60,489 bases of DNA from a virus (IMGVR_UViG_3300020200_000001:1-60489); one strand, 5' to 3'. Numbered from the stretch's first letter, positions 23,710 to 46,768 are shown. Made by a program: numbers and translations. Notes: generated by a model from the letters alone, not told the origin.

Positions 23710-26118
23710 TTAGAAAATGCTCCTTGCGCCAAAACCAGCTCTTTCCGACCAGTCTATCCTGACAGCTTCTTCTAGTTCTTCACCGGTCTTGGTTTTTATA
23801 TAACGCTCGGGCTGGATCTTATCAATAGGCAAGTCTTTCAAAAACTGCACAATTATTTCTTGGTCCGCAGGGTCAGGGACTCCGTTGAAGTTGCCTTTAA
23901 TCTGTTTTACAAAAAGTGTGCCGTCGTCATTCTTTCTGGCTTCGACTGTCACTCGCGGGAGGTTATCCGGCCCACGCAGTGAGAATATTTGAGCCCGTCC
24001 AGACTCCAAGGCTTCCTTTCCGCCTTCTCCGTAGTTGCCCTTTTTGGCATAGCCACCTATAGAGTGGTGCATCGCCGCGCCTTCTAATTGCACAGCTTGA
24101 GGGGTAAGCAGCCTTACCCACTTATCTTGGCCCATGGGTCTAAAGGTCTCCGTTCCAACGTCAAAACTTTCTTTAGGCACAGATTTATTGCCTTCAACTT
24201 TTTTTATGACCTCATCCCAATCACGCTGCAGCTTCGTGTTTTTTGTTCCTTGGACCACGGCCTCTGCAAAACTCATGTTGCCCAACTTGTCAGGGTTTAA
24301 CGTGGCAAGGCTTTTGGCAAGGTTTTTAGGGTCTAAAAAGTCTAAAGAAGGAGAAGCGGGTATGTCATAAAATACTTCTCCCTCACGAGCGGCCCTGATT
24401 AAAGTCTCATCCGCCATTTCTTCAGGTTGCAAATACATGCGGCTGTTTGGATCCTTAGCAGCCTCAGGAAATTGTTCGCCCAATAGTCTTCGTGCAAGGT
24501 TTTTTTGGTACTCTGGCGAGTAGTTCTTAAGCATTGACTCCGTATCTATACGTTGTAAAATTGGCACAGTGATTTGCTCTAGATCCACGCCTTCTTTTGC
24601 AATTTTGTCCAACATGTCCTGAGTTGCTTTATCTCGGATCTTTGCAGCCAGGTCATACTGATCTCGACTGGGAACCGCAACAAACTGCTCAATTCCAGAC
24701 CTGGTGTCATACATTGTTTCAAAATCTTCCAATGCCCTGGGATTACCTTCGCGAGCGGCCTGCAACATGTAGTCCCTGAAGTTTTTCGCATCAGTCCCAA
24801 ACGCGGGCAGTCGGCCCTCCAACAGAGCGTCCCGCAATGGATCACTCCCTGTTCCGTAGGTCGTAGTCAAATACTTACGGCCCTTGTCGTTAATGAACTG
24901 GTTTAGAGTCTTAATCTGCCCGACGGTCAGGTCCTGTGCCTCACGGCCAACTTGCTCTTCTACACGCTGTAGAAAATTATCTATTCCAGAGCCGGTGCCT
25001 GCCTTTGGAAATATTCCGCCCTTTGGCTTCAGCACTCCGCCTAAGCCACCGCCCGTCCAGTTCATCACAAATTCTTCTGGGTTTTCTTTTAGCTGCTTTG
25101 CAATGTTTTCCAAGGAGCGTTTAGCATGCGCTTTAGGGTCAGTAATGCCTTGAACAATATTGCCTGCTACAGTGGTGGCTGCCTGCGGAATCATTCCCAT
25201 CATGGCAGGTGCTGTAGCCTTAAATGCCTCAAACGCCTCTCTTGACGCAGAGGGTTGCGCTCGCTCTTGTGGCGTCATTGGCGTTCCCACCGTCATCTGT
25301 TGCGCAACCTCACCCTCCTTCGGAGATCCGGTGGCACGTTTGATGAACTTCAGGACCTCACCACCACGGGCAAATTCCCCCGCGTCCCCAGCAGCGCCGC
25401 CATCAGCATCTGCGGCAGCAGTAGCCGCTGCTGCAGCCGCTGCTGCATCGGCGTCGGCCGTTACAGACGCGTCCTGCGCCGCGATCGACGCGTCATTGGA
25501 GACTGTCGAGACGTTGCCGTCCTGGTCAGACACCGTTGCGATGCCTGTTTCGCTGACAGGAGCCGCATTGGACAGAGCAGAGGCCACGTTGGCCATGGCA
25601 TTCAACTGGCTGTCCGCAATCGCATTGCCTATCACACTGGCAGCAATCGCCCCCGGAGCAAAGCCAAGCTGACCATAGCCCATCAGGCCCAGGGCAATAC
25701 TCTGCGCCGTGTTGCTCACGCCCTGGCCCGTTGTCGGTGATCCGGCAGGCGCAGTGCTGTCGCCACCGCTTGAGGACTCCTGGTCCTTAGCCGGTTCAAT
25801 CGTCGCAGGCACGCTGCCCAGCGGCCGCGCCTTGAGTGCACCGGTTTCATCGATGTAGTACTGGTAGGCGTTCGGGTTGATCGCGCCCAACTGCAACGGG
25901 TCCAAGCGCAAAGGCTCAAGGCCCGGGGTTCCGCCACTGGCCAAATGAACAGGGGCAGCCATTCGGCCGGATGCTGCCCCGTTAGCTTTTTTTAAGATGC
26001 TCTCTAGCATGTGAGCAGATTGTTTCCGACGACGGACCTCACCGCCCTCCTCCGGAGATCCGGTGGCACGTTTGATGAAAGTAGCAGTGGACCGAGGATC
26101 ACGCTTCATGGGGCCCAT
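23710..26118 (-). CDS. Large putative internal virion protein with C-terminal PcfJ-like domain
   Basis: EG.AM.H.IGGY, IFSLR...P.VTVE, QIKG..N; duplicated FIKRATGSP motif. Confidence 0.65.
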   Translation of the reverse strand: MGPMKRDPRSTATFIKRATGSPEEGGEVRRRKQSAHMLESILKKANGAASGRMAAPVHLASGGTPGLEPLRLDPLQLGAINPNAYQYYIDETGALKARPLGSVPATIEPAKDQESSSGGDSTAPAGSPTTGQGVSNTAQSIALGLMGYGQLGFAPGAIAASVIGNAIADSQLNAMANVASALSNAAPVSETGIATVSDQDGNVSTVSNDASIAAQDASVTADADAAAAAAAATAAADADGGAAGDAGEFARGGEVLKFIKRATGSPKEGEVAQQMTVGTPMTPQERAQPSASREAFEAFKATAPAMMGMIPQAATTVAGNIVQGITDPKAHAKRSLENIAKQLKENPEEFVMNWTGGGLGGVLKPKGGIFPKAGTGSGIDNFLQRVEEQVGREAQDLTVGQIKTLNQFINDKGRKYLTTTYGTGSDPLRDALLEGRLPAFGTDAKNFRDYMLQAAREGNPRALEDFETMYDTRSGIEQFVAVPSRDQYDLAAKIRDKATQDMLDKIAKEGVDLEQITVPILQRIDTESMLKNYSPEYQKNLARRLLGEQFPEAAKDPNSRMYLQPEEMADETLIRAAREGEVFYDIPASPSLDFLDPKNLAKSLATLNPDKLGNMSFAEAVVQGTKNTKLQRDWDEVIKKVEGNKSVPKESFDVGTETFRPMGQDKWVRLLTPQAVQLEGAAMHHSIGGYAKKGNYGEGGKEALESGRAQIFSLRGPDNLPRVTVEARKNDDGTLFVKQIKGNFNGVPDPADQEIIVQFLKDLPIDKIQPERYIKTKTGEELEEAVRIDWSERAGFGARSIF

Positions 26119-27698
26119 TGACCACCGTCCTCGTTATAGGGCCCTCCTGGATCCACCACGCTATCGACTACTGCAGGAGTTGGTGTCCCACGTGTAATGC
26201 CCGGTAAAGTGCGAGGCGCGGTCGTCGAGATAGGCAAATTCTTGGAGCGGATGTACTCGGCTGCCTTTTCCATCTGCGACTTAGCCAGTTCCGGATACGG
26301 TCCGGTGTAATTAATCGCCGAGGTGTAGAAGGTCCGTTCAAAGTCCGCAGGATTGAGCGCACCGGACTTCAGTGAATTGATCCAGTAGTTGTAGCCAGCC
26401 GGATCAATCTTGGCTGCATCTTCGGCCGTAGGCGCAGAAAATGCGCCGACCGTGATGCTATTATCCCATGTCCGACCTTCTTTACGGCCAGACGTGTTGT
26501 AGTGGTTCTTGGCAAACTGCACATAGTCCGTGTTTGGATCGGCAGCAATTGCCTTAGAGAAAGCATTCGACACGTCCGGATTACGCATGTAGTAGTCCTG
26601 TGCCTGCAACGACGGAATAAGAACCTCGATCCGCGCTTTGTTCGCCTGTGCCGCGTTCCAGTTTGTGCCGTAGTTGGCGTACCGCTGGTTGAGGCCTTCC
26701 ATCTCTTTTGCGGTCGCATTCGGATTGAAGTACGCCTTGTACATCTCACCCATACTGGTCGGATGGAATGCCGCCAGATCACTGCCCATGCCAGTGCGTC
26801 CAATATTGCCGTAGGCTTCCTTGACGCGCATTTCATACGCCATCGGATCAAACTTCTCCTTGAGCTGGTCTGGCGTGAGCTGACCTGTATCAAGCTGGCG
26901 CTGGAAGTTATAGGCCATCTCCGTGTTCATCGGAAGACCTGTGCGCTGGAATGCCTGTTGAAGGGCCACGTCGCCTGCAACAAGATTTCGCGCATGCTGC
27001 TGTGACGCCGACAAGCCAGGTGTGACATCCACCAACATACGTGGGCGCGACGTGACGATCGGAGCCTGAAAGCTCGCGCCTTGGCCAGTGCCACCAGTAA
27101 GCATAGTCGCAGGGCCAAACAGATCCTTCTTCACGCCATCAACCGTGGTCGTCTGATATGCAGGCTCGGCTCTGAACCTCGACTCCAATGTCTGACCCCC
27201 GAGCGCGGACGTGATGTCTGTTGGGCTCATACCATACTGCTGTGAGGCAGATGTGATTGCTGCAGGATTGCGGTGGATATTTGCAGTGACAAGGTCAGAG
27301 ATGTTCTTGTTGTACTGTGCAGTGCCAATGCCACCAGGTGCAGTAGCGTTCGTCATCCCAGGGGACATAAGCGGTGAAGCAGGCGGACCCAGATCGAACA
27401 GGCCTCCAACAGGACGTCCTTGAACGCTTCCGCCATTAGCAAAACGCTGGAGCATCTTCCGAGCTTGATTCATCGGCGGACGTGTGTGTCGGAAGTCTCC
27501 AACCTCACCACCATACGCATACGTCATCGGCATCGAATGCGCATCTTGAAAGCCATCAATCTCTTGATTGGTTGCGGTGTAGGGGGTGAGATGCATCGAC
27601 TCAACGTCTCCCCCATTAGCGTAGGGCACCACAGGGAAAGTTGGATCAGAGATCTCGATCAACTCAAAATTTTCCTCTGACGGATTGCTTTGGTCCAT
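26106..27698 (-). CDS. Putative internal virion protein
   Basis: YANGG/YAYGG/FANGG motifs; YY.RNPDV...HY..SGRKEGR and DPAGYNYW motifs. Confidence 0.6.
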   Translation of the reverse strand: MDQSNPSEENFELIEISDPTFPVVPYANGGDVESMHLTPYTATNQEIDGFQDAHSMPMTYAYGGEVGDFRHTRPPMNQARKMLQRFANGGSVQGRPVGGLFDLGPPASPLMSPGMTNATAPGGIGTAQYNKNISDLVTANIHRNPAAITSASQQYGMSPTDITSALGGQTLESRFRAEPAYQTTTVDGVKKDLFGPATMLTGGTGQGASFQAPIVTSRPRMLVDVTPGLSASQQHARNLVAGDVALQQAFQRTGLPMNTEMAYNFQRQLDTGQLTPDQLKEKFDPMAYEMRVKEAYGNIGRTGMGSDLAAFHPTSMGEMYKAYFNPNATAKEMEGLNQRYANYGTNWNAAQANKARIEVLIPSLQAQDYYMRNPDVSNAFSKAIAADPNTDYVQFAKNHYNTSGRKEGRTWDNSITVGAFSAPTAEDAAKIDPAGYNYWINSLKSGALNPADFERTFYTSAINYTGPYPELAKSQMEKAAEYIRSKNLPISTTAPRTLPGITRGTPTPAVVDSVVDPGGPYNEDGGQWAP

Positions 27699-27734: not shown

Positions 27735-29201
27735 TCAATAATACTCCGGCACAAGAGATTCCTCTTTTGGTTCGTCAAGGTAGTCCGATTCAAGGTTGAT
27801 GAAATTCCCCGCTCGAAATCTCATTAACGCCTGGGTAGTGGTATCGACCAGGTCGTCGTTGTCGCCATTGGGAAAAGCTGCACATTCCTCGATCAACTCC
27901 TCAGCCCAGTCCGTGTCAGGTGCCCAAACCATCCCTGACTCCAAAATTGGCGCAACCGAGTTGGCTCGCGAGATCTTGTCCTGCCCCGCCCGGCGGCCAC
28001 CAGGCGAGTACATTGTCACTGGGATCCCAACACGTCGTAGCTCCTGTTGCAAAGTGATTCCAGTGGCCTTGGCCTCGATTAACACATTATCGGGTTTCCA
28101 CTCATCGTATTCGTCCTTGGCTACTCGTTTTAGCTCCGGAAAGTCCCATCGACCCTTTCGGACCCCCAACAAGATAATGTTGGGCCCTGAGTCTTGGTTC
28201 GGGTAGAACACGCCCCAGGTCGTGATCGCAGAGTAGTCAGCCGTCTCCTTCTTTGAGTACGCCGTGTCATAACTCTGAATGACGTAATTCACCGACGGTG
28301 GCTCGTCATGGGGCCACACCTGCCACCATTCCCGCTTCAAAATCGCACCCTCGTCGTTGGTCGGCTGCTGCTGGTACATCGCGTTCCACCTCTGTGCCGA
28401 CAAAGAAGCTTTTACGCCTAAGAGTTCCTCAAGCTTCCAAAACTCCGGCCACAAAGCCTTGCCAGACGGCAGGATCGCAGGGAATTCAATGACCTCCCAC
28501 TGGTCCGCCTTGTGACTGGCTTGGGCTTTGAGTAAACGCGCCGTAAGGTCCTTGGTTCCCCAACGGGTCATCACGATCACAATCGCTCCGCCCGGCTGCA
28601 GTCGAGACCGTGGGCCAGAGGTGTACCATTCCCAGCAGTTTTCCAAGGCCAGATCTGAGGTCGCATCCTGCTCCGAGTGCGGGTCGTCAATGATCAGAAG
28701 ATTCGCACCGCGACCGGTCATCGCGCCGCCCACGCCAACAGCAAAGTATTCCCCGCCATGGTCCGTGTCCCACCGGCCAGCGGCCTTGCTGTCCTGTTTG
28801 AGCATCACATCTGGGTATAGCTCCTTGTAACTGTCCATGGACATCAGATCACGGACCTTGCGGCCAAAGCGCACCGCAAGCTCGCCCGTGTGCGTCGATT
28901 CAATGATCTTGGTGTCCGGACGACGGCCCATGATGAAGGCCGGGAGCAGGTAGGAGGCAAATTCAGACTTCGTGTGCCGGGGCGGCATGTTGATGATCAG
29001 ACGCTTCAAGGACCCCGATGCAATGCGGTCGAACGCGTTTGCCATCTTGGTGTGATGGTCCCCCAGGATCGCAGAGGGCCAAACGTACCTCACGAAGTCG
29101 ATGAATTTCTCGCGAGCACGCTCTTGCGCGTCAAGCTGGAGCATTCGCAGCTCAAGTTTCGCTCGCTGTTCTTCAATGTCTGGAGGCGTGTCTGTATGCA
29201 T
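27735..29201 (-). CDS. terL: Terminase large subunit
   Basis: INMPPRHTKS Walker A, LIIDDP Walker B, VMTRW, DTAY, AFPNG..DDLVD. Confidence 0.95.
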   Translation of the reverse strand: MHTDTPPDIEEQRAKLELRMLQLDAQERAREKFIDFVRYVWPSAILGDHHTKMANAFDRIASGSLKRLIINMPPRHTKSEFASYLLPAFIMGRRPDTKIIESTHTGELAVRFGRKVRDLMSMDSYKELYPDVMLKQDSKAAGRWDTDHGGEYFAVGVGGAMTGRGANLLIIDDPHSEQDATSDLALENCWEWYTSGPRSRLQPGGAIVIVMTRWGTKDLTARLLKAQASHKADQWEVIEFPAILPSGKALWPEFWKLEELLGVKASLSAQRWNAMYQQQPTNDEGAILKREWWQVWPHDEPPSVNYVIQSYDTAYSKKETADYSAITTWGVFYPNQDSGPNIILLGVRKGRWDFPELKRVAKDEYDEWKPDNVLIEAKATGITLQQELRRVGIPVTMYSPGGRRAGQDKISRANSVAPILESGMVWAPDTDWAEELIEECAAFPNGDNDDLVDTTTQALMRFRAGNFINLESDYLDEPKEESLVPEYY

Positions 29202-29282
29202 ATACAGGTCTGTTTCGTTTTGAATTGCAAAAAATTTTTGGCCAAGTGCATTTTGCACAGAAAGGGGTACTTTTGGCAAGAA

Positions 29283-29298
29283 AGTTTCACGTGAAACA
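29283..29298. promoter_or_regulatory. parS-like palindrome
   Basis: AGTTTCACGTGAAACA, 15/16 match to the universal parS TGTTTCACGTGAAACA. Confidence 0.75.
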
Positions 29299-29499
29299 GG
29301 AGTACCCCAAAAAGGGGCCTAAAACTGTTTAGGTGGTAATTGTTTGTGCGAAATCGGGCCAAGGCCTTTGCGCATTTTGCGCGGGCCGCGAATCGCGCGG
29401 CCCGGTTCGCGGTCCGCGTCGTGCGCCAAAATGCGCGCCGGGACTCGCCCCCGGCCCCCGGCCCAGGCACCCGGGCGGCCACGGCCACGGCCTGCAGCT

Positions 29500-29545
29500 C
29501 ACGGCCCAGGGACCACGGCCCAGGGACCACGGCCCAGGGCTCACG
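29500..29545. repeat. Tandem 14-bp repeat x3 (CACGGCCCAGGGAC) in GC-rich non-coding DNA
   Basis: Directly visible; degenerate copy at 29571-29584. Confidence 0.85.
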
Positions 29546-29713
29546 ATACGGCGGCCACGCCCTGGCGCAGCACGGCCCGGGGACCCCGGGCCAGGTTTCC
29601 GATAGGCCAGGGACCGGCCACCAGGCGGCCGACGTAATGGCCAGCAGGCCAGGCGCTGCAGGGCCTGGCGCATGCGATACGGGGGCAGGCATTACGCCCA
29701 GGTGACCAGGCGC

Positions 29714-29741
29714 AAAAAAACCGGGCACGCGGGCCCGGTTT
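29714..29741 (-). terminator. Rho-independent terminator ending the island
   Basis: CCGGGC/GCCCGG stem plus T7. Confidence 0.8.
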
Positions 29742-29771
29742 CGGTGTGATGCGGCGTAATGCCGCGAGGGT

Positions 29772-30179
29772 TCAGGCCAGGCCCAGCTCGGCCCTGGTGA
29801 CGTCGCGCAGCCAGCGCGGGCCGAACCGGTTCCGGACCTGGCGCAGCAGGTGCCCGGCGGGCTCGCTCGCGTCGGTCCCGGCCAGCCAGGCGGCGGCCAG
29901 CTCGGCGCGCCAGGCGCGGCCGTGCCTGGTGGCGAATGCGGCCACGGCGGCGAGCTGCTCGGCAGTCGGCCCGGCCATGCGGGCCAGGATCACGTCGGCA
30001 GTGTCGCGGGCGTCCTGGCGATCGTCGGTGTGATACTCGCTCACCAGGCGGCCGGATGCGTCCCAGGCCTGGACGCGATACTCGGACCAGTCCCGATCGA
30101 ACCCGATCCGGACGCGGCCCACGTCCTGGACGGCCACCACCTGCACCAGGCGGCCCACTACAGCGGCGGGGCGGCTCAT
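29772..30179 (-). CDS. Island hypothetical protein
   Basis: Start MSRPAAVV, overlapping the upstream stop; EYRV..., YHTDDRQDA, L..VRN.FGP.WL. Confidence 0.7.
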   Translation of the reverse strand: MSRPAAVVGRLVQVVAVQDVGRVRIGFDRDWSEYRVQAWDASGRLVSEYHTDDRQDARDTADVILARMAGPTAEQLAAVAAFATRHGRAWRAELAAAWLAGTDASEPAGHLLRQVRNRFGPRWLRDVTRAELGLA

Positions 30180-30622
30180 GCTACACCCCCGGCCAGCTCG
30201 GCCAGCTCGGCGGGATCGCCCAGGGTCCAGGGGGCGGCCTGATAACCTGGCAGCAGGTGATCCGGTACGTCGCGCAGGACCCCGGCGGCCCGCTCGCGGG
30301 CGGCCTTGATCACGGCGCGCAGCACGTGCCAGGCGTCGGATTTTTCCCAGCTCGCCCAGTCGCTGGCCTGGTAGTCCAGGCAGGCGCAGGCCTTGACGAT
30401 GTTGACGGGGCGCAGCTCGCCCAGGGCGGCCACCTGGTAGCCCCCGAATGCGGGGCATTCGTCCTGATAACGGCCCTGGTATCGCTCGGCGAATGCGCGC
30501 CGATTCGCAGCGGCCAGCAGCTCGGCGGCCACGGGGGCAGCAAACGGCAGCGGCACGGCGTGCAGCTCGGCCCAGGTGATCAGGGTGTTGACGTGGTAGT
30601 CGGTGACGATTAAGCAGCTCAT
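30176..30622 (-). CDS. Island hypothetical protein
   Basis: N....RY, KACACLDYQA..W..S.A; has its own promoter and AGAAAG leader. Confidence 0.75.
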   Translation of the reverse strand: MSCLIVTDYHVNTLITWAELHAVPLPFAAPVAAELLAAANRRAFAERYQGRYQDECPAFGGYQVAALGELRPVNIVKACACLDYQASDWASWEKSDAWHVLRAVIKAARERAAGVLRDVPDHLLPGYQAAPWTLGDPAELAELAGGVA

Positions 30623-30667
30623 AAGGTCTCACTTTCTTTCTGTATACGTGCGACGGTGCACGGTGAC

Positions 30668-30697
30668 ATTTTCGCCCGAAATTCGCGGCGTAGTCAA
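30668..30697 (-). promoter_or_regulatory. Sigma70-like promoter TTGACT-N18-GAAAAT
   Basis: Shares core CCGCGAATTTCGGGCGAAAAT with 31811-31840. Confidence 0.6.
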
Positions 30698-30703
30698 TCG
30701 GGC

Positions 30704-30731
30704 AAAAAAAACGGGGCCACGCGGGCCCCGT
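30704..30731 (-). terminator. Rho-independent terminator
   Basis: ACGGGGCC/GGCCCCGT stem plus T-tract after the DUF932 gene. Confidence 0.8.
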
Positions 30732-30754
30732 CCAGGTGCAGCAGCTCGGCCAGG

Positions 30755-31762
30755 TCAAGCGGCCAGCAGCTCGGCGGCGCGCGCCTTGAGTGCGGCCCCG
30801 GATCCAAACCAGGCGGACTCCATCCGGGTATTATTTGAGCGGCCCCGCTCATGATCCACTAGCTCGGTGACGGCGTTAAGCATGGCCCAGCGAGTACCGG
30901 CCACGCCCGGCAGGTCGGACCCGATCGCCCGGCCGTCGAACAGCTCGCGGATCCGGCGGAATGCTTTCGACTCGCGGACGTCCAGGTCGGCACGGTGCCA
31001 GGGTTTCAGCAGCTCGGCCAGGAAATCGTCGGCCTGCTCGGTCGACATCGGCACGGCGGCGAGCTGGCGGGATTGCACCAGAAAATTTTCCCAGGCATTC
31101 GCGACGATCCCAAGCTGCAGGCGGACGGCCTCACGCTCAAATTTTTCCGAATGCAGCACGCGCACGGCGCTGGCCAGGTAGCCCCGCGACGTCTCGGCCT
31201 CGCCCTTGATCACGCGGCCCTGGGAATATCCGCCCACGGCGGCGGTGATGGTGTTATTGCATACCACGCGAATGGCGGTGAATTTCGCCACGGTGGCCAT
31301 GGTCCCGTCGTACGACGTGCCCAGCAGCAGGTAAGGCTTTACCAGGTCCCGATCCACCACGGGGGCAGCATCGCCCACGCTGGCCAGGGCCCAGACGCGT
31401 TTCCCGTCCGATAACGCGCCCGCCGTTTCAAGCTGGAATCCGCCCAGGTCCACCAGCTCGCGAAAAAATTCCATCACTTCGCCCGGCTGGACCACGTGGT
31501 ACCCGTCCGAAACCACGGCCAGGGGCGCGCCGGTGTCGGACCGGCTCAGAACCTTACGATTCGGCCAGGTTTGCAGCTCGGTGGTGGCGGGGGTGTAATA
31601 CTTAACCGGGGACTCAATCACTGTGTAGCCTAGCCCGGCCTCGCGGGTCCAGGTTTCAATACTTGCGCCAGGTGTAAGGGCCTGGCCCAGACCGTGCCAG
31701 GGTGTCGCGCCGGTGTAGGCCATTGCAGCGGTGCCGGTGGTGATATCAATCATGTGCGCCAT
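30755..31762 (-). CDS. DUF932 / LGT_TIGR03299 phage-plasmid protein
   Basis: MAH....MAY.G.TPWHGLG, ETAGAL..G..VW.LA, T.IRVVC.NT, GT.W...NAVTE..DH. Confidence 0.88.
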   Translation of the reverse strand: MAHMIDITTGTAAMAYTGATPWHGLGQALTPGASIETWTREAGLGYTVIESPVKYYTPATTELQTWPNRKVLSRSDTGAPLAVVSDGYHVVQPGEVMEFFRELVDLGGFQLETAGALSDGKRVWALASVGDAAPVVDRDLVKPYLLLGTSYDGTMATVAKFTAIRVVCNNTITAAVGGYSQGRVIKGEAETSRGYLASAVRVLHSEKFEREAVRLQLGIVANAWENFLVQSRQLAAVPMSTEQADDFLAELLKPWHRADLDVRESKAFRRIRELFDGRAIGSDLPGVAGTRWAMLNAVTELVDHERGRSNNTRMESAWFGSGAALKARAAELLAA

Positions 31763-31810
31763 TTTGCTTTCTCACTTTCTCAGGTATACGTGCGGGATTG
31801 CACGGTTTGA

Positions 31811-31840
31811 ATTTTCGCCCGAAATTCGCGGGGGTGTCAA
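31811..31840 (-). promoter_or_regulatory. Sigma70-like promoter TTGACA-N18-GAAAAT
   Basis: Perfect -35; core repeated at 30668-30697. Confidence 0.65.
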
Positions 31841-31852
31841 GCCTCCGCAAAA

Positions 31853-32368
31853 TCAGGGGGCGGGCACCAGCTCGGCGGACCTGGCCACGCGGGCGGGCAT
31901 GCGCCAGGTGGCCCCGAATCCGTCCAGCACGCGCCAGCCACGGCGGCCCAGGGACTCGGCCAGGGTGTACTCGCGGCCGTCGCGCATGCGCAGGCGGGCA
32001 CCAGGGACCAGGGCAGGCCTGGCGGATTTTTTCGCATGATATTCGCGGACCCGCTCGCGCCATTGTGCGGCCCAGCCCTCGCGCTCGGCGTGCGGGGCGT
32101 CCAGGTAAGCCAGGGGGCAGTCGACGGCGCAGGGCCCGACGGTTTCGTCCAGGTCTTTATACCCCCAGCCCGCGCCCCGGGAACCCTGCAGCAGGTCCAG
32201 GCCGATCCAGTGCAGGCCGGTGGCCCGCTCGCGGATCAAATACCAGTGATGAGAACCCGATGCGCAGGTGCGCACCAGCTCGAATTTTTCACCGAATCGC
32301 TCGGGGCGGCGCAGGTGCTGCACCAGGGATTCACGCGTCGGCGTAGTGTAGGGAAAAGTCCAGCCCAT
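31853..32368 (-). CDS. DUF6927-like protein
   Basis: MGWT, WGYKD.DE..GP...DCP...L, A..WR.RV. Confidence 0.7.
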   Translation of the reverse strand: MGWTFPYTTPTRESLVQHLRRPERFGEKFELVRTCASGSHHWYLIRERATGLHWIGLDLLQGSRGAGWGYKDLDETVGPCAVDCPLAYLDAPHAEREGWAAQWRERVREYHAKKSARPALVPGARLRMRDGREYTLAESLGRRGWRVLDGFGATWRMPARVARSAELVPAP

Positions 32369-32371
32369 AAT

Positions 32372-32626
32372 TTAGCCCTCCCGCCCAGCGCGCAAATAGT
32401 CCAGCTCGAATTCCAGGACATCGGCAGCGGCGGGCCAGAGTAAGCCCGAAAACGGGCCCGCGCCCTCGTAAGGCGGTTTTTTAATTTCGGCGATTACCAG
32501 GGGCAGCAGGCGATGCACTGCCGCGTCCCAGCTCGCGCCCTGCAGGAATGCGTCGCGCGCCTGGTGCCGGGCGGCCTCGGTGGCCTGATCACTGATCACG
32601 GCCTGGGCGATTTCTGACGGTTTCAT
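32372..32626 (-). CDS. Island hypothetical protein
   Basis: AGAAAGTGAG leader and promoter upstream. Confidence 0.65.
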   Translation of the reverse strand: MKPSEIAQAVISDQATEAARHQARDAFLQGASWDAAVHRLLPLVIAEIKKPPYEGAGPFSGLLWPAAADVLEFELDYLRAGREG

Positions 32627-32675
32627 GGTTTGCTCACTTTCTGACTGTATGCGCGGGGACGTCCCCCGCGCTGCT

Positions 32676-32705
32676 AGTGTATCGCAAAAAATCTCGGGCG
32701 CGCAA
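32676..32705 (-). promoter_or_regulatory. Sigma70-like promoter TTGCGC-N18-TACACT
   Basis: 33-bp sequence 32675-32707 is identical to 33459-33491. Confidence 0.75.
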
Positions 32706-32707
32706 GC

Positions 32708-33403
32708 TCAAAAAATTTCGCGGCCAATATCGCCCGCCACGTGGTGGCGCAGCAGGGACCCAGGGGGCAGCGAACGAGCGAATGCGCGCAGGGTTTCGGC
32801 GTCATTCGGCGCACCGGTTTTTTTCGTCCTGTGCCACTGAATCGCTGTTTTACCCCCGGCCGCATAGCATCCGCCGGACCCGGTGCCGACGCGTTTCGCG
32901 CTGGCCCCGTGCGCGACGAAAACGATCACATAATCCCGCTCGCCACGTGCGCACAATGGGCGGCCACCGCCGCAGCTCGCGCAGGTGACGTGCTCGACGG
33001 TTTCGGCCGGGCAGCGAACGAACCGGACGCCCTGGATTTTTTTCGGCCAGGTGTCGGCGGTGTCGGCCGGTGCAGCGTATACGGCCGGGCGGCCCAGCTC
33101 GACGGTGCGCACGGCCTCGCGGACATCGTCGCAGCTCGCATTGATCACGGTCTCGCGTTTTTTCGGGATCGGCAGGGCCTCGGCCGGGAAATGCGAATAA
33201 GTCCAGGCCTGGCCATTACGGGGCACGGCCTCGCGCAGGGCGTCCAAATAAGCGACGTCCACCTGGTGCGTGCCGGTCTCACTTTTCGGATGCAGGGCGC
33301 AAGTTTTCGGGCAGGTCCCGAACGTCTCATGTACGCCCGCGCGGTACGTGACGGCGATGGGGCCGGTTTTGCTATTGCTCGACGTGGTGACGGTTTTCAG
33401 CAT
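32708..33403 (-). CDS. Cys-rich phage protein (gp88/DUF7227-like)
   Basis: S.N.KTGPI, TCP.TC, WTYSH, INASC, CPA..TC.SC...LC, R..VAGD. Confidence 0.65.
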   Translation of the reverse strand: MLKTVTTSSNSKTGPIAVTYRAGVHETFGTCPKTCALHPKSETGTHQVDVAYLDALREAVPRNGQAWTYSHFPAEALPIPKKRETVINASCDDVREAVRTVELGRPAVYAAPADTADTWPKKIQGVRFVRCPAETVEHVTCASCGGGRPLCARGERDYVIVFVAHGASAKRVGTGSGGCYAAGGKTAIQWHRTKKTGAPNDAETLRAFARSLPPGSLLRHHVAGDIGREIF

Positions 33404-33459
33404 AATCTTTCTCGCTTTCTCACTGTATGGCCGACGGGGAAATCCCGACCGGTCCGCGT

Positions 33460-33489
33460 AGTGTATCGCAAAAAATCTCGGGCGCGCAA
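33460..33489 (-). promoter_or_regulatory. Sigma70-like promoter TTGCGC-N18-TACACT
   Basis: Exact duplicate of 32676-32705. Confidence 0.75.
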
Positions 33490-33500
33490 GCCCCCGCGAA

Positions 33501-33653
33501 TCACCCGCCAAAAAATCGGCCGATCAGGGCCATGCGTAGCAGGCGCAGCAGGTCCCCGGCCGTGGACGGGGCGCGCTTTGGTTTCGGGGGCACGTACACA
33601 ACCCCCCGCTGGATTTTCTGGCGCATCGTGCGCCGGTTTTGCCTGTAATGCAT
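33501..33653 (-). CDS. Small basic hypothetical protein
   Basis: ATG after AGAAAGTGAG leader; Arg-rich. Confidence 0.5.
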   Translation of the reverse strand: MHYRQNRRTMRQKIQRGVVYVPPKPKRAPSTAGDLLRLLRMALIGRFFGG

Positions 33654-33684
33654 TGGTTCCCTTAATTTCTCACTTTCTGATTTT

Positions 33685-34104
33685 TCACTCGACCAGGCGG
33701 TGGCGCAGCATATGCCACCGTACGCGAGCAAGCGGCCAGCGGTCCACCGGGGGCGTGTCAATCCCCAGGTGGTGCAGGTCCATCACTTGCGCGCCACGGT
33801 ATAGCAGCAGCTCGGCCTTCAATGCCGACGTGGTCCCGGGCGGATGATACTGCACTAAGACGAACGTCGGCGCACCCAGGTCCGCATGCTTCGCATGAAA
33901 TGCGACTTGGTGCGGGCTCAGATTTATTTTTCGCCCGCGTTTCACCACCTTCAGCTCGATCGTGGCGAAATGCCCGGACCCCTTAAATGCCACCAGACAG
34001 TCAGGTATTCCCAGATTCACCCTCGACTCGATCCGCGTGATGTGGCAGTCCGCCAGGTTCTCCCGAATCCGCCGATACAGTCCCGCCTCTGGTTTCACTG
34101 CCAT
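33685..34104 (-). CDS. VRR-NUC / PD-(D/E)XK endonuclease (resolvase-like)
   Basis: RIE...G.PD, IELK, LSPHQ..FH. Confidence 0.85.
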   Translation of the reverse strand: MAVKPEAGLYRRIRENLADCHITRIESRVNLGIPDCLVAFKGSGHFATIELKVVKRGRKINLSPHQVAFHAKHADLGAPTFVLVQYHPPGTTSALKAELLLYRGAQVMDLHHLGIDTPPVDRWPLARVRWHMLRHRLVE

Positions 34105-34717
34105 TTTTTAATGCCTCTTCTGCGTTGAATTCTGGATCGTGCTCGATCGTGCGCACGGCGTCCGCCGGGTCCAGGTCAATAATCGCCGTCGGTGGCGGCC
34201 CGCCGTACAGCTTTTTGATTTCCTCCAGCTTGCGCATAACCTCTTCTTTCGACATCGAATCGATCGTACCGAATCGAACCTCTTTTCGCTCGACGTAGAT
34301 CGTGCCCAGTGCCTGGCCTCGCCGGTACTCAGCCTGCACGGCCGCACCATATGCCCCGGCCTGCAGCGCAGCGTCGCGAATTTTTTGCAGGTCTTTCATA
34401 TGCCGCTCGAACGTCGTCCCGTACTTCGCATTCAGCTCGGCGCGATAAGACTGAATCGCAGCGACCACGTGCGGCGATATTTCCGCATTCGTCAGCTTCC
34501 AAGCCTTCGTTTTCGCAGACTTCTCTGGATACCCAGCGCGGATCGCGGCCTCCTTCATCGTGATCTCGCCATCACCTGATACCAGCTCCTGCACAAACTT
34601 CCATTCGCGCCCGGTCAGTGTCCGCTGCCGCTTCAACGGCGCGACCTTCGTCGTCAGGCGCTGCTGCAGCTTATTGCCCAGGATCGGGGGCGTATTGAAA
34701 ACGTCTTTCTTGCTCAT
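34001..34717 (-). CDS. terS: Terminase small subunit
   Basis: LT.RE..FV, EAAIRAGY..KSA HTH, RD.A...GAY.AAVQAE..RG. Confidence 0.82.
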   Translation of the reverse strand: MSKKDVFNTPPILGNKLQQRLTTKVAPLKRQRTLTGREWKFVQELVSGDGEITMKEAAIRAGYPEKSAKTKAWKLTNAEISPHVVAAIQSYRAELNAKYGTTFERHMKDLQKIRDAALQAGAYGAAVQAEYRRGQALGTIYVERKEVRFGTIDSMSKEEVMRKLEEIKKLYGGPPPTAIIDLDPADAVRTIEHDPEFNAEEALKNGSETRGGTVSADSGEPGGLPHHADRVEGESGNT

Positions 34718-34971
34718 GCAACTCTCCGGCAGATCCATTCGCCCTCGGTCCGCTGGCGCACGCTAAACTTCTTTGCCTGGTCTCGGCGATAGAACGACTT
34801 CAGGGCGTCCCTGGCGGCCATAGCATCCCGATGCGTGACCAGGACAAAGTAGTCACCCAGCACCATGTACTTAAACGGGTACTTCGCTCGACCGCTCAGA
34901 GCGTTGCGCCGCACCGCATGCTCCCGGGGCTCGATCCCGGCCGTCTTCACCTCTTCGTCTCTCAACGGCAT
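34714..34971 (-). CDS. Small putative DNA-binding protein
   Basis: KYPF..M.LGDYF...KFSVR....W..R motif. Confidence 0.65.
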   Translation of the reverse strand: MPLRDEEVKTAGIEPREHAVRRNALSGRAKYPFKYMVLGDYFVLVTHRDAMAARDALKSFYRRDQAKKFSVRQRTEGEWICRRVA

Positions 34972-34981
34972 CTTGCCCTCC

Positions 34982-35443
34982 AAAGTACCCAGATCAGTGT
35001 ACCTCAATAAAGTACCCATGTAAACACCTGGCCATCATCAATTTCGCGTTTCTATATAAGGGTACTTCCTGCGAAAAAAAAAATTTAAAAAAAAAATTTG
35101 AGCCGCGCGCGCACCCCGTAAATTCCTTACACCTCACGCTTATACAACAAGTACCGTGATCCGTGAACCCTTGTCCTGTCTACGTTCTTACGGCATTACG
35201 CTTATTACGGTACTTTTCACACAAAAAAACTGAAATCACTTTTTTTACAGGAAATACCTCTATATAACCACCCCGCCGACGTAATGAACCCGTTTTCTTA
35301 GGTACTTTTATTACGTCCACGAAACCCCCTAAAAGTACCCCGTTCCGGCCGTAATTCACCTCGTTTCGCGGACCACGAATTTTTGGCCAGATTTGGAGTG
35401 TGGTATAATATAGGTACTTCGGTCATTTTGATCGGGGTACTTT
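34982..35443. other. Repeat-structured AT-rich non-coding locus (candidate origin/control region)
   Basis: About 9 AAGTACC/GGTACTT boxes, imperfect inverted repeat 35053-35080 / 35240-35266, A-tracts, ATTACG repeats. Confidence 0.55.
35401..35409 (+). promoter_or_regulatory. Extended -10 promoter TGGTATAAT
   Basis: TGn-TATAAT about 60 bp upstream of 35469. Confidence 0.7.
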
Positions 35444-35468
35444 GTTCTTTAACATACAGGAGAAAGCA

Positions 35469-35720
35469 ATGAAAAAGACCAATCGCGTCTGGATCGAACT
35501 CGAACTACCTTCGCGTGACGAACCCCAGCTCGGGCATGGCCGGGCCGCTGCAGCCAGTCAGATGCTGCGAAAACTTGGGGTAGACACAGGTAAGCATTAC
35601 AGCCCTGTCTGGTTTGACGAGAAAAAGTGGCGTTATGCCTTTGTCCTAGATTCCGCAGGCAGCTTTGTCTGGGCCTCGGACCATGGTCACTGGTTCAATC
35701 TAGACTACCTGGCCAAGTAA
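35469..35720 (+). CDS. Hypothetical protein
   Basis: CATACAGGAGAAAGCA leader before ATG; own promoter and terminator. Confidence 0.75.
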   Translation: MKKTNRVWIELELPSRDEPQLGHGRAAAASQMLRKLGVDTGKHYSPVWFDEKKWRYAFVLDSAGSFVWASDHGHWFNLDYLAK

Positions 35721-35732
35721 GGCCAATTCCGC

Positions 35733-35765
35733 AGGGGGACCCCACCAGGGTCCCCCTTAATTTTT
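35733..35765 (+). terminator. Rho-independent terminator
   Basis: AGGGGGACCC/GGGTCCCCCT stem followed by T-rich tail. Confidence 0.7.
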
Positions 35766-35790
35766 GGCAAGATTCCTGTAAAGTCCTACT

Positions 35791-36243
35791 ATGCTCCCCG
35801 AACCTGCCGACCCATCCAAAGTAGTACAGACTGCACTCGGGGGCATCCGGGAGGCCATCAAGGCCGGGCGGGAGATTCATGAGACCGCCAAAGAGGTCAA
35901 CGCGTTCCTGGATGAAGAGGCTCGGGCGAAAGTGGCCTGGCGCAAGAAACAGCAAGAAGTCCAGCGGCGCGGGGACATGATGTATATCGACGCCATCAAC
36001 GAGTACAGGATTCTGGCCGGTATCAAAGCTCAGAAAGATCAGGCGTTTAAACAAATAGAGAAAGAGTTTGGGCGTAAGGCAATACAAGAAGTCAACGATT
36101 TAGAGGTAAGACTGCGGCGGGAACGCAAAGAGTTACAAAAGGAATATGACTCAGAGCGCAAGGCTTCTAGGAATACGTGGTTGATAATTATTTTGATTTC
36201 AGCCTTGGTTTACGGAATCCTTAAAACAACAAAGGTTTGGTGA
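35791..36243 (+). CDS. Coiled-coil protein with C-terminal transmembrane helix
   Basis: WLIIILISALVYGIL C-terminus. Confidence 0.7.
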   Translation: MLPEPADPSKVVQTALGGIREAIKAGREIHETAKEVNAFLDEEARAKVAWRKKQQEVQRRGDMMYIDAINEYRILAGIKAQKDQAFKQIEKEFGRKAIQEVNDLEVRLRRERKELQKEYDSERKASRNTWLIIILISALVYGILKTTKVW

Positions 36244-36279
36244 TGGCAGGAAAAGAAATGATTTACAGCACGGTGACGT

Positions 36280-36308
36280 AAAAAAGGGCCACGTGGCCCT
36301 TTTCTTTT
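36280..36308. terminator. Bidirectional terminator between convergent genes
   Basis: AAAAAAGGGCCACGTGGCCCTTTTCTTTT. Confidence 0.78.
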
Positions 36309-36690
36309 ACCGCTGCTCCCGCAGCATTACCAATGCTTCAGCGATGGCCGCCTGGGCCCCGTCGATTAGCTCCGTGGCCATGATGGTGGCGTCCGACTGA
36401 TCGACATCCATGCCGGTGCTGGATAAGCGCAGCATTGCAGCGATGCGTCGCAATCTTACCAGCGCCAGCTCGATCGCCTGCTGCTCCATGGGCACTGGCT
36501 CATGTGCAAACAGCAGGCCTGCCTGCTCGGCGTTTTCTTTGCGGACCCACCGATACTTGTACCCAGGACCTGGCTCGGGTGCCGGGGGCATTGGGACTGC
36601 GGTTTTCTGAACCCTGGTCCGTAGTGCTTTCTTCCCTGGCGGCCGACCTCGGCGCTTGGGGGCTTCAACTGCTTTCTTTGCTCGTGCCAT
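36307..36690 (-). CDS. AT-hook-containing hypothetical protein
   Basis: KRRGRPPGKK; PGYKYRWVR. Confidence 0.65.
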   Translation of the reverse strand: MARAKKAVEAPKRRGRPPGKKALRTRVQKTAVPMPPAPEPGPGYKYRWVRKENAEQAGLLFAHEPVPMEQQAIELALVRLRRIAAMLRLSSTGMDVDQSDATIMATELIDGAQAAIAEALVMLREQR

Positions 36691-45974: not shown

Positions 45975-46748
45975 TCAGAACGGTTGTGCGCCACCTGTTT
46001 CGGTAGCATCACCCTCATGCTTCACCTGCACCTTGCCGGAGTTGATTTGCTCTGCGAAGGCTTTGGCTGCTGAATAGACGTTCGGATCTTCGACTGACCC
46101 CACTCGCTCGATCTCCCAACCGAACCATTTGCCCTTGTCGTTGGACTCACCAACGGTCGTAAGGCGATAGATCTGGCTGTAGATAGCTGGAGTGAAGAGT
46201 CCGTTCTTGCCTTGCAGCTTCACGGACATCATCATGCTGTTCCACTTGCGACTCTTTTTGAGCTGGGTGGACTTCATGACGATCAGCGCAGGACTGGGTA
46301 TGCCCTGCTCATCGACCACCATCACATAGTGATTTGCGGTGTTTTCGATGTAGTTGCCGTTGTCCAGGTAATCTTTGTTATCACCTGGTTCACGGTGTGT
46401 GCGGCTAAGAATATCGCTTGTGCTCGGATAGATCCCAATCGGCGCACCCGAACCGCTGCCACGCGGTGCCCACTCAATGTACTGCCGTACGTAGGCTGAC
46501 GGGACGACCAAAATGCCCTTCTTGCCGTCGAAGAGCTGGCCTGTAACACTGTTGTAGATCATGCCGGGCATCGCGCCATCAACCTCACCGACTTCTGGCG
46601 AAGTGTTGGTCAGAAGGCGTAGAAACGGAAGCGCAAAGTCATCCTGTCCCATGCCGTCAAAACCAGCCTGTGCGTCTTCCTCAAAATGAGAAACCAGCGC
46701 AAGTGCGTTAGCCGATTGTTCTTTTACTGCAACTTGAGTCTTGCTCAT
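45975..46748 (-). CDS. Putative single-stranded DNA-binding protein
   Basis: LPFL..L...SP, MKSTQLKKSRKWNS, NDKG.W; acidic tail ending PF; replication operon. Confidence 0.65.
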   Translation of the reverse strand: MSKTQVAVKEQSANALALVSHFEEDAQAGFDGMGQDDFALPFLRLLTNTSPEVGEVDGAMPGMIYNSVTGQLFDGKKGILVVPSAYVRQYIEWAPRGSGSGAPIGIYPSTSDILSRTHREPGDNKDYLDNGNYIENTANHYVMVVDEQGIPSPALIVMKSTQLKKSRKWNSMMMSVKLQGKNGLFTPAIYSQIYRLTTVGESNDKGKWFGWEIERVGSVEDPNVYSAAKAFAEQINSGKVQVKHEGDATETGGAQPF

Positions 46749-46768
46749 GATTCGTGTTCCTTTTTTCG

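What the first reader, a model, noticed from the sequence alone, without database searches (positions are those of the whole stretch)
29175..33816. GC-rich island between terL and terS is almost purged of GAAG/CTTC and other asymmetric tetramers
Seen: reading 29175-33816 by hand I found a single GAAG/CTTC (31477-31480), against roughly 10 in the 1.5 kb terL gene; the motif resumes at 33817. CAAC/GTTG, GGAG/CTCC and AGAG/CTCT are also down to a few copies. Lys is often AAA despite the high GC, and RBSs read AGAAAGTGAG rather than AGAAAGGAG. Palindromes (GGCC, CCGG, GATC, GCGC) are abundant, so this is not ordinary type II site avoidance. Known: first-injected regions of T5 and T7 and plasmid leading regions carry anti-defence genes. 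Inference: this is the first-ejected, unprotected segment, evading asymmetric-site systems (type I/IIG/III R-M, BREX) until its own genes act.
Basis: partly seen in the sequence, partly recalled or inferred. Interest (0 to 1): 0.8.

Follow-up and report, generated by a model that had tools for sequence, protein, structure and literature searches.

The report
Word-purged GC-rich island in lake phage
A 4.5-kb block of genes between the two packaging genes of an uncultured lake phage has been rewritten by silent changes so that a dozen short DNA words are almost absent on both strands, most likely to hide it from sequence-reading host defences.

Summary
In 29175-33816, GAAG/CTTC occurs once against about 10 per kb elsewhere. 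CAAC, GGAG and AGAG occur 3, 5 and 1 times.

Synonymous-codon shuffles that keep proteins and codon usage expect 18.8 GAAG/CTTC and 23.9 GGAG/CTCC. Control genes of the same genome show nothing comparable. GC-rich bacterial homologues carry 8-17 GAAG/CTTC per kb.

The depletion holds in both orientations, in a non-coding spacer and in the ribosome-binding sites, and it runs against the capsid gene's codon preferences.

The module (DUF7227, DUF932, small ORFs) is syntenic in 80 of 80 related contigs. The purged words differ between lineages.

Best reading: selection against short asymmetric DNA words in a self-promoted module, to evade sequence-specific host nucleases. I could not show that it is ejected first, because the genome assembles as a circle and only contigs were available. 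No island protein matches a known anti-defence family.

Verdict: a new, extreme variant of the known sub-genomic motif avoidance.

The parts
29326..33816 (.). Word-purged, GC-rich island. The right edge is uncertain by about 200 bp.
   Evidence: It is the only word-poor segment of the genome. Motif gaps are and GC.
29330..29771 (.). GC-rich (0.72) spacer upstream of terL with short tandem repeats (14-bp unit about 3 copies; cores GGCCGTG and CCTGG). It is apparently non-coding. It may be a packaging-recognition or other protein-binding array (inference).
   Evidence: Fifteen purged words occur 4 times against 33.7 expected. Relatives share no consistent reading frame.
29772..30179 (-). g7, 135 aa, function unknown (PHROG 7884).
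   Evidence: Homologues lie in most of the 80 related loci.
30176..30622 (-). g6, 148 aa, no family.
   Evidence: It has 19 unnamed relatives.
30668..30697 (-). Sigma-70-like promoter TTGACT-18-GAAAAT before g6, followed by a hairpin and the GAAAGTGAG ribosome-binding site.
   Evidence: (repeat D4).
30709..30733 (-). Terminator-like hairpin with a T-run after g5.
30755..31762 (-). g5, 335 aa, DUF932 / TIGR03299 phage-plasmid-like protein. It carries the island's only GAAG/CTTC, at 31477-31480.
   Evidence: Pfam E 1.2e-54, NCBIfam E 9.4e-87, motif position.
31811..31840 (-). Sigma-70-like promoter TTGACA-18-GAAAAT before g5.
   Evidence: 10 of 12 matches.
31853..32368 (-). g4, 171 aa, weak DUF6927 likeness.
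   Evidence: Pfam E 2.2e-4, below the cut-off. The Atlas gives a lead only, score 0.88.
32372..32626 (-). g3, 84 aa, no family.
32675..32707 (-). Copy 1 of an exact 33-nt repeat (promoter-like TTGCGC...TACACT, read by eye) before g3.
   Evidence: repeat D8. Logan contigs break here.
32708..33403 (-). g2, 231 aa, DUF7227, 8 Cys.
   Evidence: Pfam E 1.6e-33..
33459..33491 (-). Copy 2 of the exact 33-nt repeat, before g2.
   Evidence: repeat D8.
33501..33653 (-). g1, tentative 50-aa basic ORF (pI 12).
   Evidence: Weak homologues were found in only 4 loci.
33685..34104 (-). Nuclease/helicase-like ORF (PHROG 2165). Its last ~130 bp already carry the island's style.
34001..34738 (-). Small terminase subunit, the flank with ordinary word content.
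   Evidence: PHROG 51 E 1.6e-10.
27735..29201 (-). Large terminase subunit, the flank with ordinary word content (10 GAAG/CTTC).
   Evidence: PHROG 38 E 1.5e-111. Count.

Best explanation
The island is a conserved, self-promoted gene module: DUF7227, DUF932 and a changing set of small ORFs. It lies between terS and terL and ends in a repeat array just upstream of terL.

Its DNA has been under long-lasting selection at the level of the double strand against a set of short, asymmetric words. These are mostly mixed purine/pyrimidine words such as GAGG, GGAG, AGAG, CAGA, GAAG and AGAC, plus CAAC and TAGA in this genome.

The purge was achieved in four ways:
- by synonymous codon choice (AAA not AAG; CTG, GCC);
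- by codon-pair choice (GCA instead of GCC before TTC; GAA only before A or T);
- by changing the ribosome-binding site (GGAG to GTGAG);
- by gathering the remaining A/T into long tracts.

The result is DNA with an unusually small vocabulary on both strands.

The most likely agent is the varied repertoire of host nucleases that read asymmetric words or half-sites (type I, III, IIG/IIS restriction, BREX-like systems). The module must survive and be expressed from host-type promoters before the rest of the genome is safe.

Shown: the purge, its independence from composition and from translation, its strand symmetry, and its variation between lineages. Inferred: the agent, early expression, first entry, and any counter-defence function of the proteins.
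For: 1. Depletion beyond protein and codon usage. GAAG/CTTC is 1 vs 18.8 (z -5.6) and GGAG/CTCC 2 vs 23.9 (z -5.9). Four control gene sets are normal.

2. Codon-pair rules. None of 31 Phe codons and none of 30 TCC/TCG codons follow a C. Of 16 GCA codons, 9 precede a T. GAA is followed by A or T in 17 of 18 cases.

3. Both orientations are depleted. This holds in the window and in 61 pooled islands: CCTC 0.08 and GAGG 0.24; CTCC 0.14 and GGAG 0.24; flanks 0.66-0.98 for these four words.

4. Non-coding spacers are purged. The window's spacer has 4 hits vs 33.7 expected. Across 25 relatives, 16.3 kb of spacer gives O/E 0.06-0.23 for nine of the ten words tested; CAAC is 0.38.

5. Ribosome-binding sites read GAAAGTGAG in the island and AGAAAGGAG elsewhere.

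6. It is not the translational optimum. The capsid gene uses AAG 80%, AAC 92% and GCC 18%. The island uses AAA 77%, AAT 65% and GCC 67%.

7. It is not a matter of GC. DUF932 homologues in 64-70% GC bacteria carry 8-17 GAAG/CTTC per kb. L051 has no GAAG/CTTC in its DUF932 gene at GC 0.51. L026 and L033 are GC-rich without a GAAG purge.

8. Lineages differ in what they purge. CCTC is purged in 46 of 68 islands, AGAG in 41, CTCC in 36, CAGA in 26, CTTC in 21 and AGAC in 21. Sister clades differ. Flanks have 0.5-1.3 purged words against 5.2 in islands.

9. The vocabulary is compressed. There are 1030 distinct 6-mers against 1239 +/- 14 in synonymous shuffles (z -14.9). Controls give z -2.4 to -3.4.

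10. Host-type promoters and terminators lie inside the island.

11. There is a published precedent that selection by a type I system concentrates on the first-injected DNA, with the motif AGAG N6 GTG (PMC12455610; abstract and discussion read).
Against: - No termini could be mapped, and the assembly is circular. First entry is therefore untested. If packaging is headful, the model weakens (the point is made in PMC12455610).
- The island lies mid-map, between the replication and structural modules, not at an obvious early end.
- None of the 8 island proteins tested matches a known anti-restriction or defence family. The DUF932 model finds no solved fold.
- Known restriction and BREX sites are mostly 5-7 bp (recalled), so a near-total purge of 4-mers needs an extra idea, such as purging of half-sites, which was not tested.
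- GATC, GGCC and CCWGG are enriched, which would be costly if hosts cut them.
- The preference for A/T tracts and for AAA is general to the module, even in part in the low-GC outgroup. It is not explained by any named system.
- The relatives are not independent samples.
- The host is unknown.
Confidence: 0.5

Rival explanations
1. Expression optimisation. The island's bias reflects selection for fast, robust translation and stable mRNA of highly expressed early genes. That would include avoiding Shine-Dalgarno-like and anti-Shine-Dalgarno-like words. It would not reflect DNA-level evasion.
For: Codon bias is very strong: CTG 82%, GCC 67%, GC3 0.81. The words most often purged across the family (GGAG, GAGG, AGGA and their complements) are pieces of AGGAGG/CCTCCT. 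Plasmid leading regions are reported to be GC-richer and better codon-adapted (bioRxiv 2025.04.03.647016; abstract and section 12 read). Promoters, 5' hairpins and terminators suggest strong expression.
Against: Lys, Asn, Ala and Pro choices run opposite to the capsid gene's. Rare codons are used to avoid a word (GCA before TTC). Both orientations and non-coding spacers are purged. The ribosome-binding sites themselves lose GGAG. CAAC, TAGA and AACT are unrelated to Shine-Dalgarno pairing. Purged sets differ between lineages.
Confidence: 0.12
2. Foreign origin or a neutral local process. The island keeps the oligonucleotide signature of a GC-rich donor, or was driven GC-rich by biased gene conversion at a recombination hot spot near the packaging site.
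For: There is a sharp GC step, and the island has its own promoters and terminators, like a moron. Gene content downstream of DUF932 varies. The closest cellular DUF932 homologues are in GC-rich Betaproteobacteria. Contig ends cluster just downstream of DUF932: 36 of 61 lie within 2 kb, against 5 of 63 upstream.
Against: The core genes are syntenic in 80 of 80 loci, including a distant clade with ordinary GC of 0.54. GC-rich bacterial homologues have normal word counts. Lys and Asn moved towards A/T while everything else moved towards G/C. Codon-pair avoidance is not produced by a simple GC drive. GC and the GAAG purge occur apart.
Confidence: 0.1
3. A phage-intrinsic DNA function. The word content serves the phage's own machinery. 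It might give the last-packaged or TerS-bound DNA a particular stiffness or bend (A/T tracts in GC-rich DNA), or shield the segment from a phage-encoded nuclease or RNase that reads short words.
For: The island abuts a repeat array found in 26 of 26 spacers, next to terL. The A/T-tract pattern is general to the module: 61-63 of 68 islands. A nuclease-like ORF sits at the island's upstream edge. T4 RegB, recalled from the literature, cuts GGAG in early mRNAs.
Against: A structural role does not predict different purged words in sister lineages. The other 56 kb of the genome are full of the same words, so a self-nuclease would destroy them. RNA-level cutting does not explain the antisense and non-coding depletion.
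Confidence: 0.1

Closest known systems
Early-injected region of Autographiviridae (T7 with Ocr; Murciavirus versus the type I system Mme2I, PMC12455610)
   Same: Selection against restriction motifs is concentrated on one sub-genomic segment, while the rest of the genome keeps them. The segment has host-type promoters. The published motif contains AGAG, one of the words purged here.
   Different: In those phages one bipartite motif is missing from a segment known to enter first. Here a dozen 4-mers are nearly absent and the whole vocabulary is compressed. By the same metric, T7 shows only its genome-wide GATC purge. First entry and an Ocr-like protein are not shown here.
First-step-transfer region of phage T5
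   Same: It is a block of a few kilobases of pre-early genes, transcribed towards the entering end, that must act before the rest enters (annotation). Gaining a restriction site there makes T5 sensitive (as cited in PMC12455610).
   Different: The T5 block lies in a 10-kb terminal repeat. Here contig depth is flat. The first 4.4 kb of T5 shows one purged word (AGAG, 4 vs 32.5) against eight or more here.
Leading regions of conjugative plasmids (PMC11541004, search listing only; bioRxiv 2025.04.03.647016, also listed as PMC13478746)
   Same: The first-entering DNA is GC-richer, has special promoters and is enriched in counter-defence genes. DUF932 is a phage/plasmid family.
   Different: That study found only weak depletion of palindromes and concluded that restriction targets are not systematically depleted. 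Here the depletion is extreme and concerns asymmetric words. Entry here would be as double-stranded DNA.
Morons (self-transcribed, compositionally odd inserts in phage late regions; recalled)
   Same: Own promoter and terminator, a GC step, and a position among late genes.
   Different: The core genes are not sporadic. They are syntenic in all 80 relatives, and their composition changed in place.
Genome-wide restriction-site avoidance (for example GATC in T7)
   Same: Short words are removed by silent changes (one search shows GATC at 0-2 per 4.4 kb throughout T7).
   Different: Here the purge is local (7% of the genome), covers many words at once, concerns asymmetric words, and spares or enriches palindromes.

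Membership tests
First-entering, motif-depleted counter-defence region (T7 early region, T5 FST, plasmid leading region) | Physically enters the cell first | not testable with these tools
   All 24 runs are kept as contigs and show no molecule ends. The assembly is circular with a 127-bp overlap.
First-entering, motif-depleted counter-defence region (T7 early region, T5 FST, plasmid leading region) | Local depletion of defence-target-like motifs relative to the rest of the genome | tested here: met
   Which defence systems read these words is not known.
First-entering, motif-depleted counter-defence region (T7 early region, T5 FST, plasmid leading region) | Transcribed early by host RNA polymerase | tested here: inconclusive
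   Two sigma-70-like sites (9-10 of 12 matches) and a repeated promoter-like element were found. These are consensus matches only, with no RNA data.
First-entering, motif-depleted counter-defence region (T7 early region, T5 FST, plasmid leading region) | Encodes recognisable anti-restriction or anti-defence proteins | tested here: inconclusive
   Pfam, PHROGs, NCBIfam and PADLOC return only families of unknown function: DUF932, DUF7227 and a weak DUF6927. No anti-defence library was on hand.
Long terminal repeat carrying pre-early genes (T5 type) | Double read depth over the repeat in a collapsed assembly | tested here: not met
   Contig depths across and beside the island are 11.3-12.3, 32-42 and 84-97 in three runs. 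Contig depth is a coarse measure.
Moron / recently acquired island | Sporadic presence among close relatives | tested here: not met
   The order terS - nuclease - DUF7227 - DUF932 is found in 80 of 80 loci wherever the contig reaches.
Moron / recently acquired island | Own promoter and terminator, and composition unlike the flanks | tested here: met
Translationally optimised gene set | Codon choices agree with the most highly expressed gene of the same phage | tested here: not met
   Capsid gene: AAG 80%, AAC 92%, GCC 18%, CCC 9%. Island: AAA 77%, AAT 65%, GCC 67%, CCC 41%. The capsid gene was identified by a PHROG match only.
DUF932 / TIGR03299 (g5) | Full-length match above the curated cut-off | tested here: met
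   Pfam 186 bits against a cut-off of 23. NCBIfam 291 bits against 110.7.
DUF7227 (g2) | Match above the curated cut-off | tested here: met
   116.6 bits against a cut-off of 27, covering profile positions 90-218 of 223 in the best stretch.

The most novel reading that the evidence does not exclude
The module is 'stealth DNA'. It is a phage segment recoded by evolution to carry as few distinct words as possible on both strands. Silent codon, codon-pair and ribosome-binding-site changes did this, and leftover A/T is parked in tracts. The segment then presents almost no half-site to the shifting type I, type III and BREX specificities of its host population. Each phage lineage's purged set would be a readable record of the defence specificities it meets.
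Probability: 0.3. Interest if true: 0.9.

Novelty: new variant of a known kind. Interest (0 to 1): 0.74.

Why it matters
If the reading holds, this is the clearest natural case so far that host defences shape a phage genome on a sub-genomic scale. Here that shaping goes well beyond the loss of one site: several kilobases are recoded.

It would give three practical handles:
- A sequence-only way to find the vulnerable, early-acting segment of uncultured phages, by looking for local compression of the vocabulary.
- A shortlist of proteins (DUF932, DUF7227 and the small ORFs) to test for counter-defence activity.
- Lineage-specific purged word sets that can be matched to methylation motifs of lake bacteria, to link uncultured phages to hosts and to their restriction specificities.

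Even if the agent turns out to be something else, the signal itself needs an explanation. It reaches z about -15 for word diversity, and it is conserved in degree but variable in target among more than 60 relatives.

Tried and rejected
- GC content alone: rejected. GC-rich bacterial DUF932 loci have normal word counts.
- Amino-acid composition and codon usage: rejected by synonymous shuffles.
- Recent horizontal import: rejected for the core genes by synteny.
- Collapsed long terminal repeat: not supported, because contig depth is flat.
- Phage-encoded methyltransferase protecting the palindromes: no match to PF00145, PF01555 or PF02086 in the genome. Other families were not searched.
- Known RNA families in 28800-36500: one match below threshold at 36282-36310, nothing in the island.
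- The 30-nt promoter-like repeat has no exact copy in the viral collection.
- Function of DUF932: the model has mean pLDDT 73.6. Foldseek against the PDB gave nothing at E <= 0.001. VIA-align gave a best Z of 5.7, within noise. The sequence search of solved structures found nothing meaningful for g5 or g2.
- The Atlas returned only DUF7227/GP88 and DUF6927 leads.
- g6 has 19 unnamed relatives.
- PADLOC gave no hit for any of the 10 proteins tested.
- Termini: the runs are Logan contigs and listed no places where molecules begin or end. The contigs break only at the 33-nt repeats and near 30.1-30.4, 35.9 and 37.6 kb.
- No RNA holder was listed among the 24 runs.
- Contig ends of relatives cluster downstream of DUF932. 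This can equally come from assembly breaks in GC-rich, repeat-rich or variable DNA.
- Literature: searches for this phage group, DUF932, and motif depletion in early or leading regions found no description of this island or of local 4-mer purging. The six-term search found nothing. Supplementary files were not opened. Table S2 of PMC10611076 (ORF annotation of DSL-LC04) might name some of these ORFs.
- Chi-like reading of the CCTGGTG repeats: considered, but not pursued after arrays were seen in both orientations.
- I considered a penalised model to infer the minimal set of avoided words, and did not run it.

Full report
**What the window is.** The 60,489 bases are a whole phage genome. It comes from lake-water metagenomes and was assembled as a circle with a 127-bp end overlap. 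Nearly all genes lie on the minus strand. Reading that strand, the order is:
- replication genes at 47.6-35 kb (primase, helicases, DNA polymerase);
- terS (34738-34001) and a nuclease-like ORF;
- the island;
- terL (29201-27735), two large unnamed ORFs, portal, capsid, and tail fibre.

The only named relative is the metagenome-assembled Phage DSL-LC04. It has the same terL-island-terS layout and a weaker form of the same signature. Its paper gives no biology for this region (passages read).

**The observation.**
- GAAG/CTTC occurs once, at 31477, against 9.97 per kb elsewhere. CAAC, GGAG and AGAG occur 3, 5 and 1 times, and TAGA never.
- The two longest GAAG-free stretches of the genome are the two halves of the island.
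- terL has 10 GAAG/CTTC.
- Palindromes are kept or enriched: GGCC 24 per kb, GCGC 17 per kb, CCWGG 8-21 per kb. All 4-bp palindromes except CTAG have O/E of 0.59 or more.
- Lys is AAA in 27 of 35 codons.
- The ribosome-binding word is GAAAGTGAG in the island, 4 times, and AGAAAGGAG elsewhere, 6 times.
- A scan with 400-bp windows finds a single word-poor segment in the genome, 29350-33900.

**More than composition.**
- Shuffling synonymous codons keeps proteins and codon usage. With that null, sense CTTC is 0 vs 11.9 expected, GGAG 2 vs 16.8, CTCC 0 vs 10.5, CCTC 0 vs 9.9 and GAGA 4 vs 14.7. None of 2000 shuffles went as low.
- Counted on both strands, GAAG/CTTC is 1 vs 18.8 and GGAG/CTCC 2 vs 23.9. 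Four control gene sets of similar size give 27 vs 31.9, 50 vs 55.5, 77 vs 76.0 and 27 vs 32.3 for GAAG/CTTC.
- The rules can be seen at codon junctions. No Phe, TCC or TCG codon follows a C (0 of 61). The rare GCA, GGA and CGA codons sit before T-starting codons. GAA is used before A or T, and GAG before C or G.
- DUF932 homologues in 64-70% GC Betaproteobacteria carry 8-17 GAAG/CTTC per kb and almost no A-runs. High GC is therefore not the cause.
- The capsid gene, the best proxy on hand for the translational optimum, prefers AAG (80%) and AAC (92%) and avoids GCC and CCC. That is the opposite of the island.

**A property of the DNA, not of the message.**
- Both orientations of the main words are depleted in the window.
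- The same holds in 61 pooled related islands, about 200 kb. CCTC is 0.08, GAGG 0.24, CTCT 0.15 and AGAG 0.24; these words are at 0.68-0.98 in the flanks, and all listed words at 0.45-1.53.
- The 442-bp GC-rich spacer between the last island gene and terL has 4 hits of 15 purged words against 33.7 expected. It shows no consistent reading frame in relatives.
- Spacers of 25 relatives are purged as well. O/E is 0.06-0.23 for nine of the ten words tested, and 0.38 for CAAC.
- The loss of GGAG from the ribosome-binding sites points the same way.

**A wider pattern.**
- A/T bases are either single or gathered in tracts. Runs of exactly two are at half the expected number. Runs of five or more are 2- to 20-fold enriched. 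Neither the flank nor GC-rich bacterial DNA shows this.
- The coding DNA of the island uses 1030 distinct strand-symmetric 6-mers, against 1239 +/- 14 in synonymous shuffles (z -14.9). Controls give z -2.4 to -3.4.

**Relatives.**
- The DUF932 protein has 254 relatives in the viral collection, and 80 loci were fetched.
- All 80 show the order terS - nuclease - DUF7227 - DUF932, then a changing set of g3, g4, g6 and g7, a 0.5-1 kb GC-rich spacer, and terL, wherever the contig reaches.
- Word-poor segments occur in 70 of the 80 loci, always in this region.
- A distant clade (terL 64-72% identical) has the same genes at ordinary GC (0.54) without the strong purge. The signature therefore arose in place in a core module.
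- In 66 distinct DUF932 genes the same words fall below the synonymous-shuffle expectation in 91-98% of sequences. These sequences are related, so they are not independent.
- The targets differ between lineages. The window's clade purges GAAG, AGAG, GGAG, CAAC and TAGA. Others purge CAGA and AGAC to zero, or CCTC to zero (0 vs 38), or ACGT and GTAC. L026 and L033 are GC-rich with GAAG at expectation. L051 has no GAAG in its DUF932 gene at GC 0.51.
- Islands carry 5.2 purged words on average. Flanks of the same length carry 0.5-1.3, mostly CTAG and stop-related words.
- The A/T-tract pattern and the AAA preference are general: 61-63 of 68 islands.

**What the island encodes.** It holds seven ORFs in at least four transcription units.
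- There are two sigma-70-like promoters (TTGACA/TTGACT-18-GAAAAT).
- An exact 33-nt promoter-like repeat occurs twice.
- There are 5' hairpins and T-run terminators.
- The proteins are DUF7227, DUF932/TIGR03299, a weak DUF6927-like protein, and four without a family. None matches a defence model.
- The DUF932 model finds no solved fold.
- A preprint reports mutations in a DUF932 gene of an integrated plasmid selected after phage exposure (passages read). This is a lead only.

**How it most likely works.** Five findings together are what selection by DNA-reading nucleases with varied, asymmetric specificities would produce:
- strand symmetry;
- extension into non-coding DNA;
- the cost accepted in codon choice and in ribosome binding;
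- sparing of palindromes;
- turnover of targets between lineages.

Recent work shows that a type I system (AGAG N6 GTG) restricts Autographiviridae only when its motif lies in the first-injected DNA. That work argues that selection concentrates there (PMC12455610). Plasmid leading regions are GC-richer and codon-adapted, but only weakly motif-depleted.

A purge of 4-mers would make sense if the words are half-sites shared by many shuffled specificities. This is my inference and was not tested.

The spacer carries tandem and inverted arrays with cores CCTGGTG and GGCCGTG in 26 of 26 loci. That would fit a terminase-binding site. If packaging starts there and runs towards terL, the island would be packaged last and ejected first. 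Its genes would point towards the entering end, as the pre-early genes of T5 do. None of this could be tested, because only contigs were available.

By the same metric, T7 shows only its genome-wide GATC purge, and the first 4.4 kb of T5 shows one purged word. This island is therefore far more extreme than the textbook cases.

**Verdict.** The evasion reading is the best supported (about 0.5). First ejection and counter-defence function remain inferences. The general A/T-tract habit is unexplained.

Noticed in passing
window 29330-29771; spacers of L005-L069 (coordinates): Every one of 26 spacers upstream of terL holds tandem or inverted arrays of short units with cores CCTGGTG/CACCAGG and GGCCGTG, up to 11 copies of a 15-bp unit. 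They look like protein-binding iterons, perhaps the terminase recognition site.
   Followed up: partly
window 32675-32707 and 33459-33491: An exact 33-nt repeat lies before g3 and g2. It is promoter-like by eye. The short-read contigs of three runs break at both copies.
   Followed up: partly
window 30509-30529 and 30758-30778: An identical 21-nt stretch encodes the same peptide (AAELLAA) in two unrelated island genes, g6 and the end of g5. This could be small-scale copying or convergent word reuse.
   Followed up: no
L095 (phage T5) 1-4400: The first 4.4 kb of the T5 first-step-transfer region has AGAG/CTCT 4 times against 32.5 expected from base composition. It is the only purged 4-mer there.
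   Followed up: no
IMG/VR loci L002-L081: Contig ends cluster just downstream of DUF932: 36 of 61 ends lie within 2 kb, against 5 of 63 upstream. This is either assembly breakage in variable, GC-rich DNA or a hint of a physical end.
   Followed up: partly
window 23710-27698: Two large ORFs (802 and 530 aa) between terL and portal have no Pfam, PHROG, NCBIfam or PADLOC match. The DSL-LC04 record calls the counterpart PcfJ-like.
   Followed up: no
L019 1873-2562: DUF7227 is split into two ORFs (68 and 151 aa) in this relative. It may be a frameshift or an assembly error.
   Followed up: no
window 32800-33170, 32020-32050, 32470-32480: Runs of 6-7 A lie inside the coding sequence of g2, g3 and g4 (Lys-Lys and Glu-Lys contexts). 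Such runs are prone to slippage, and their meaning here is unknown.
   Followed up: no
window 45975-46862: This ORF matches Pfam Pam3_Gp34 (E 9.4e-65), a family named after a cyanophage protein.
   Followed up: no
window 35074-35099: A 13-bp A/T unit is repeated twice in the low-GC gap upstream of the terS operon, beside a promoter-like site at 35024.
   Followed up: no
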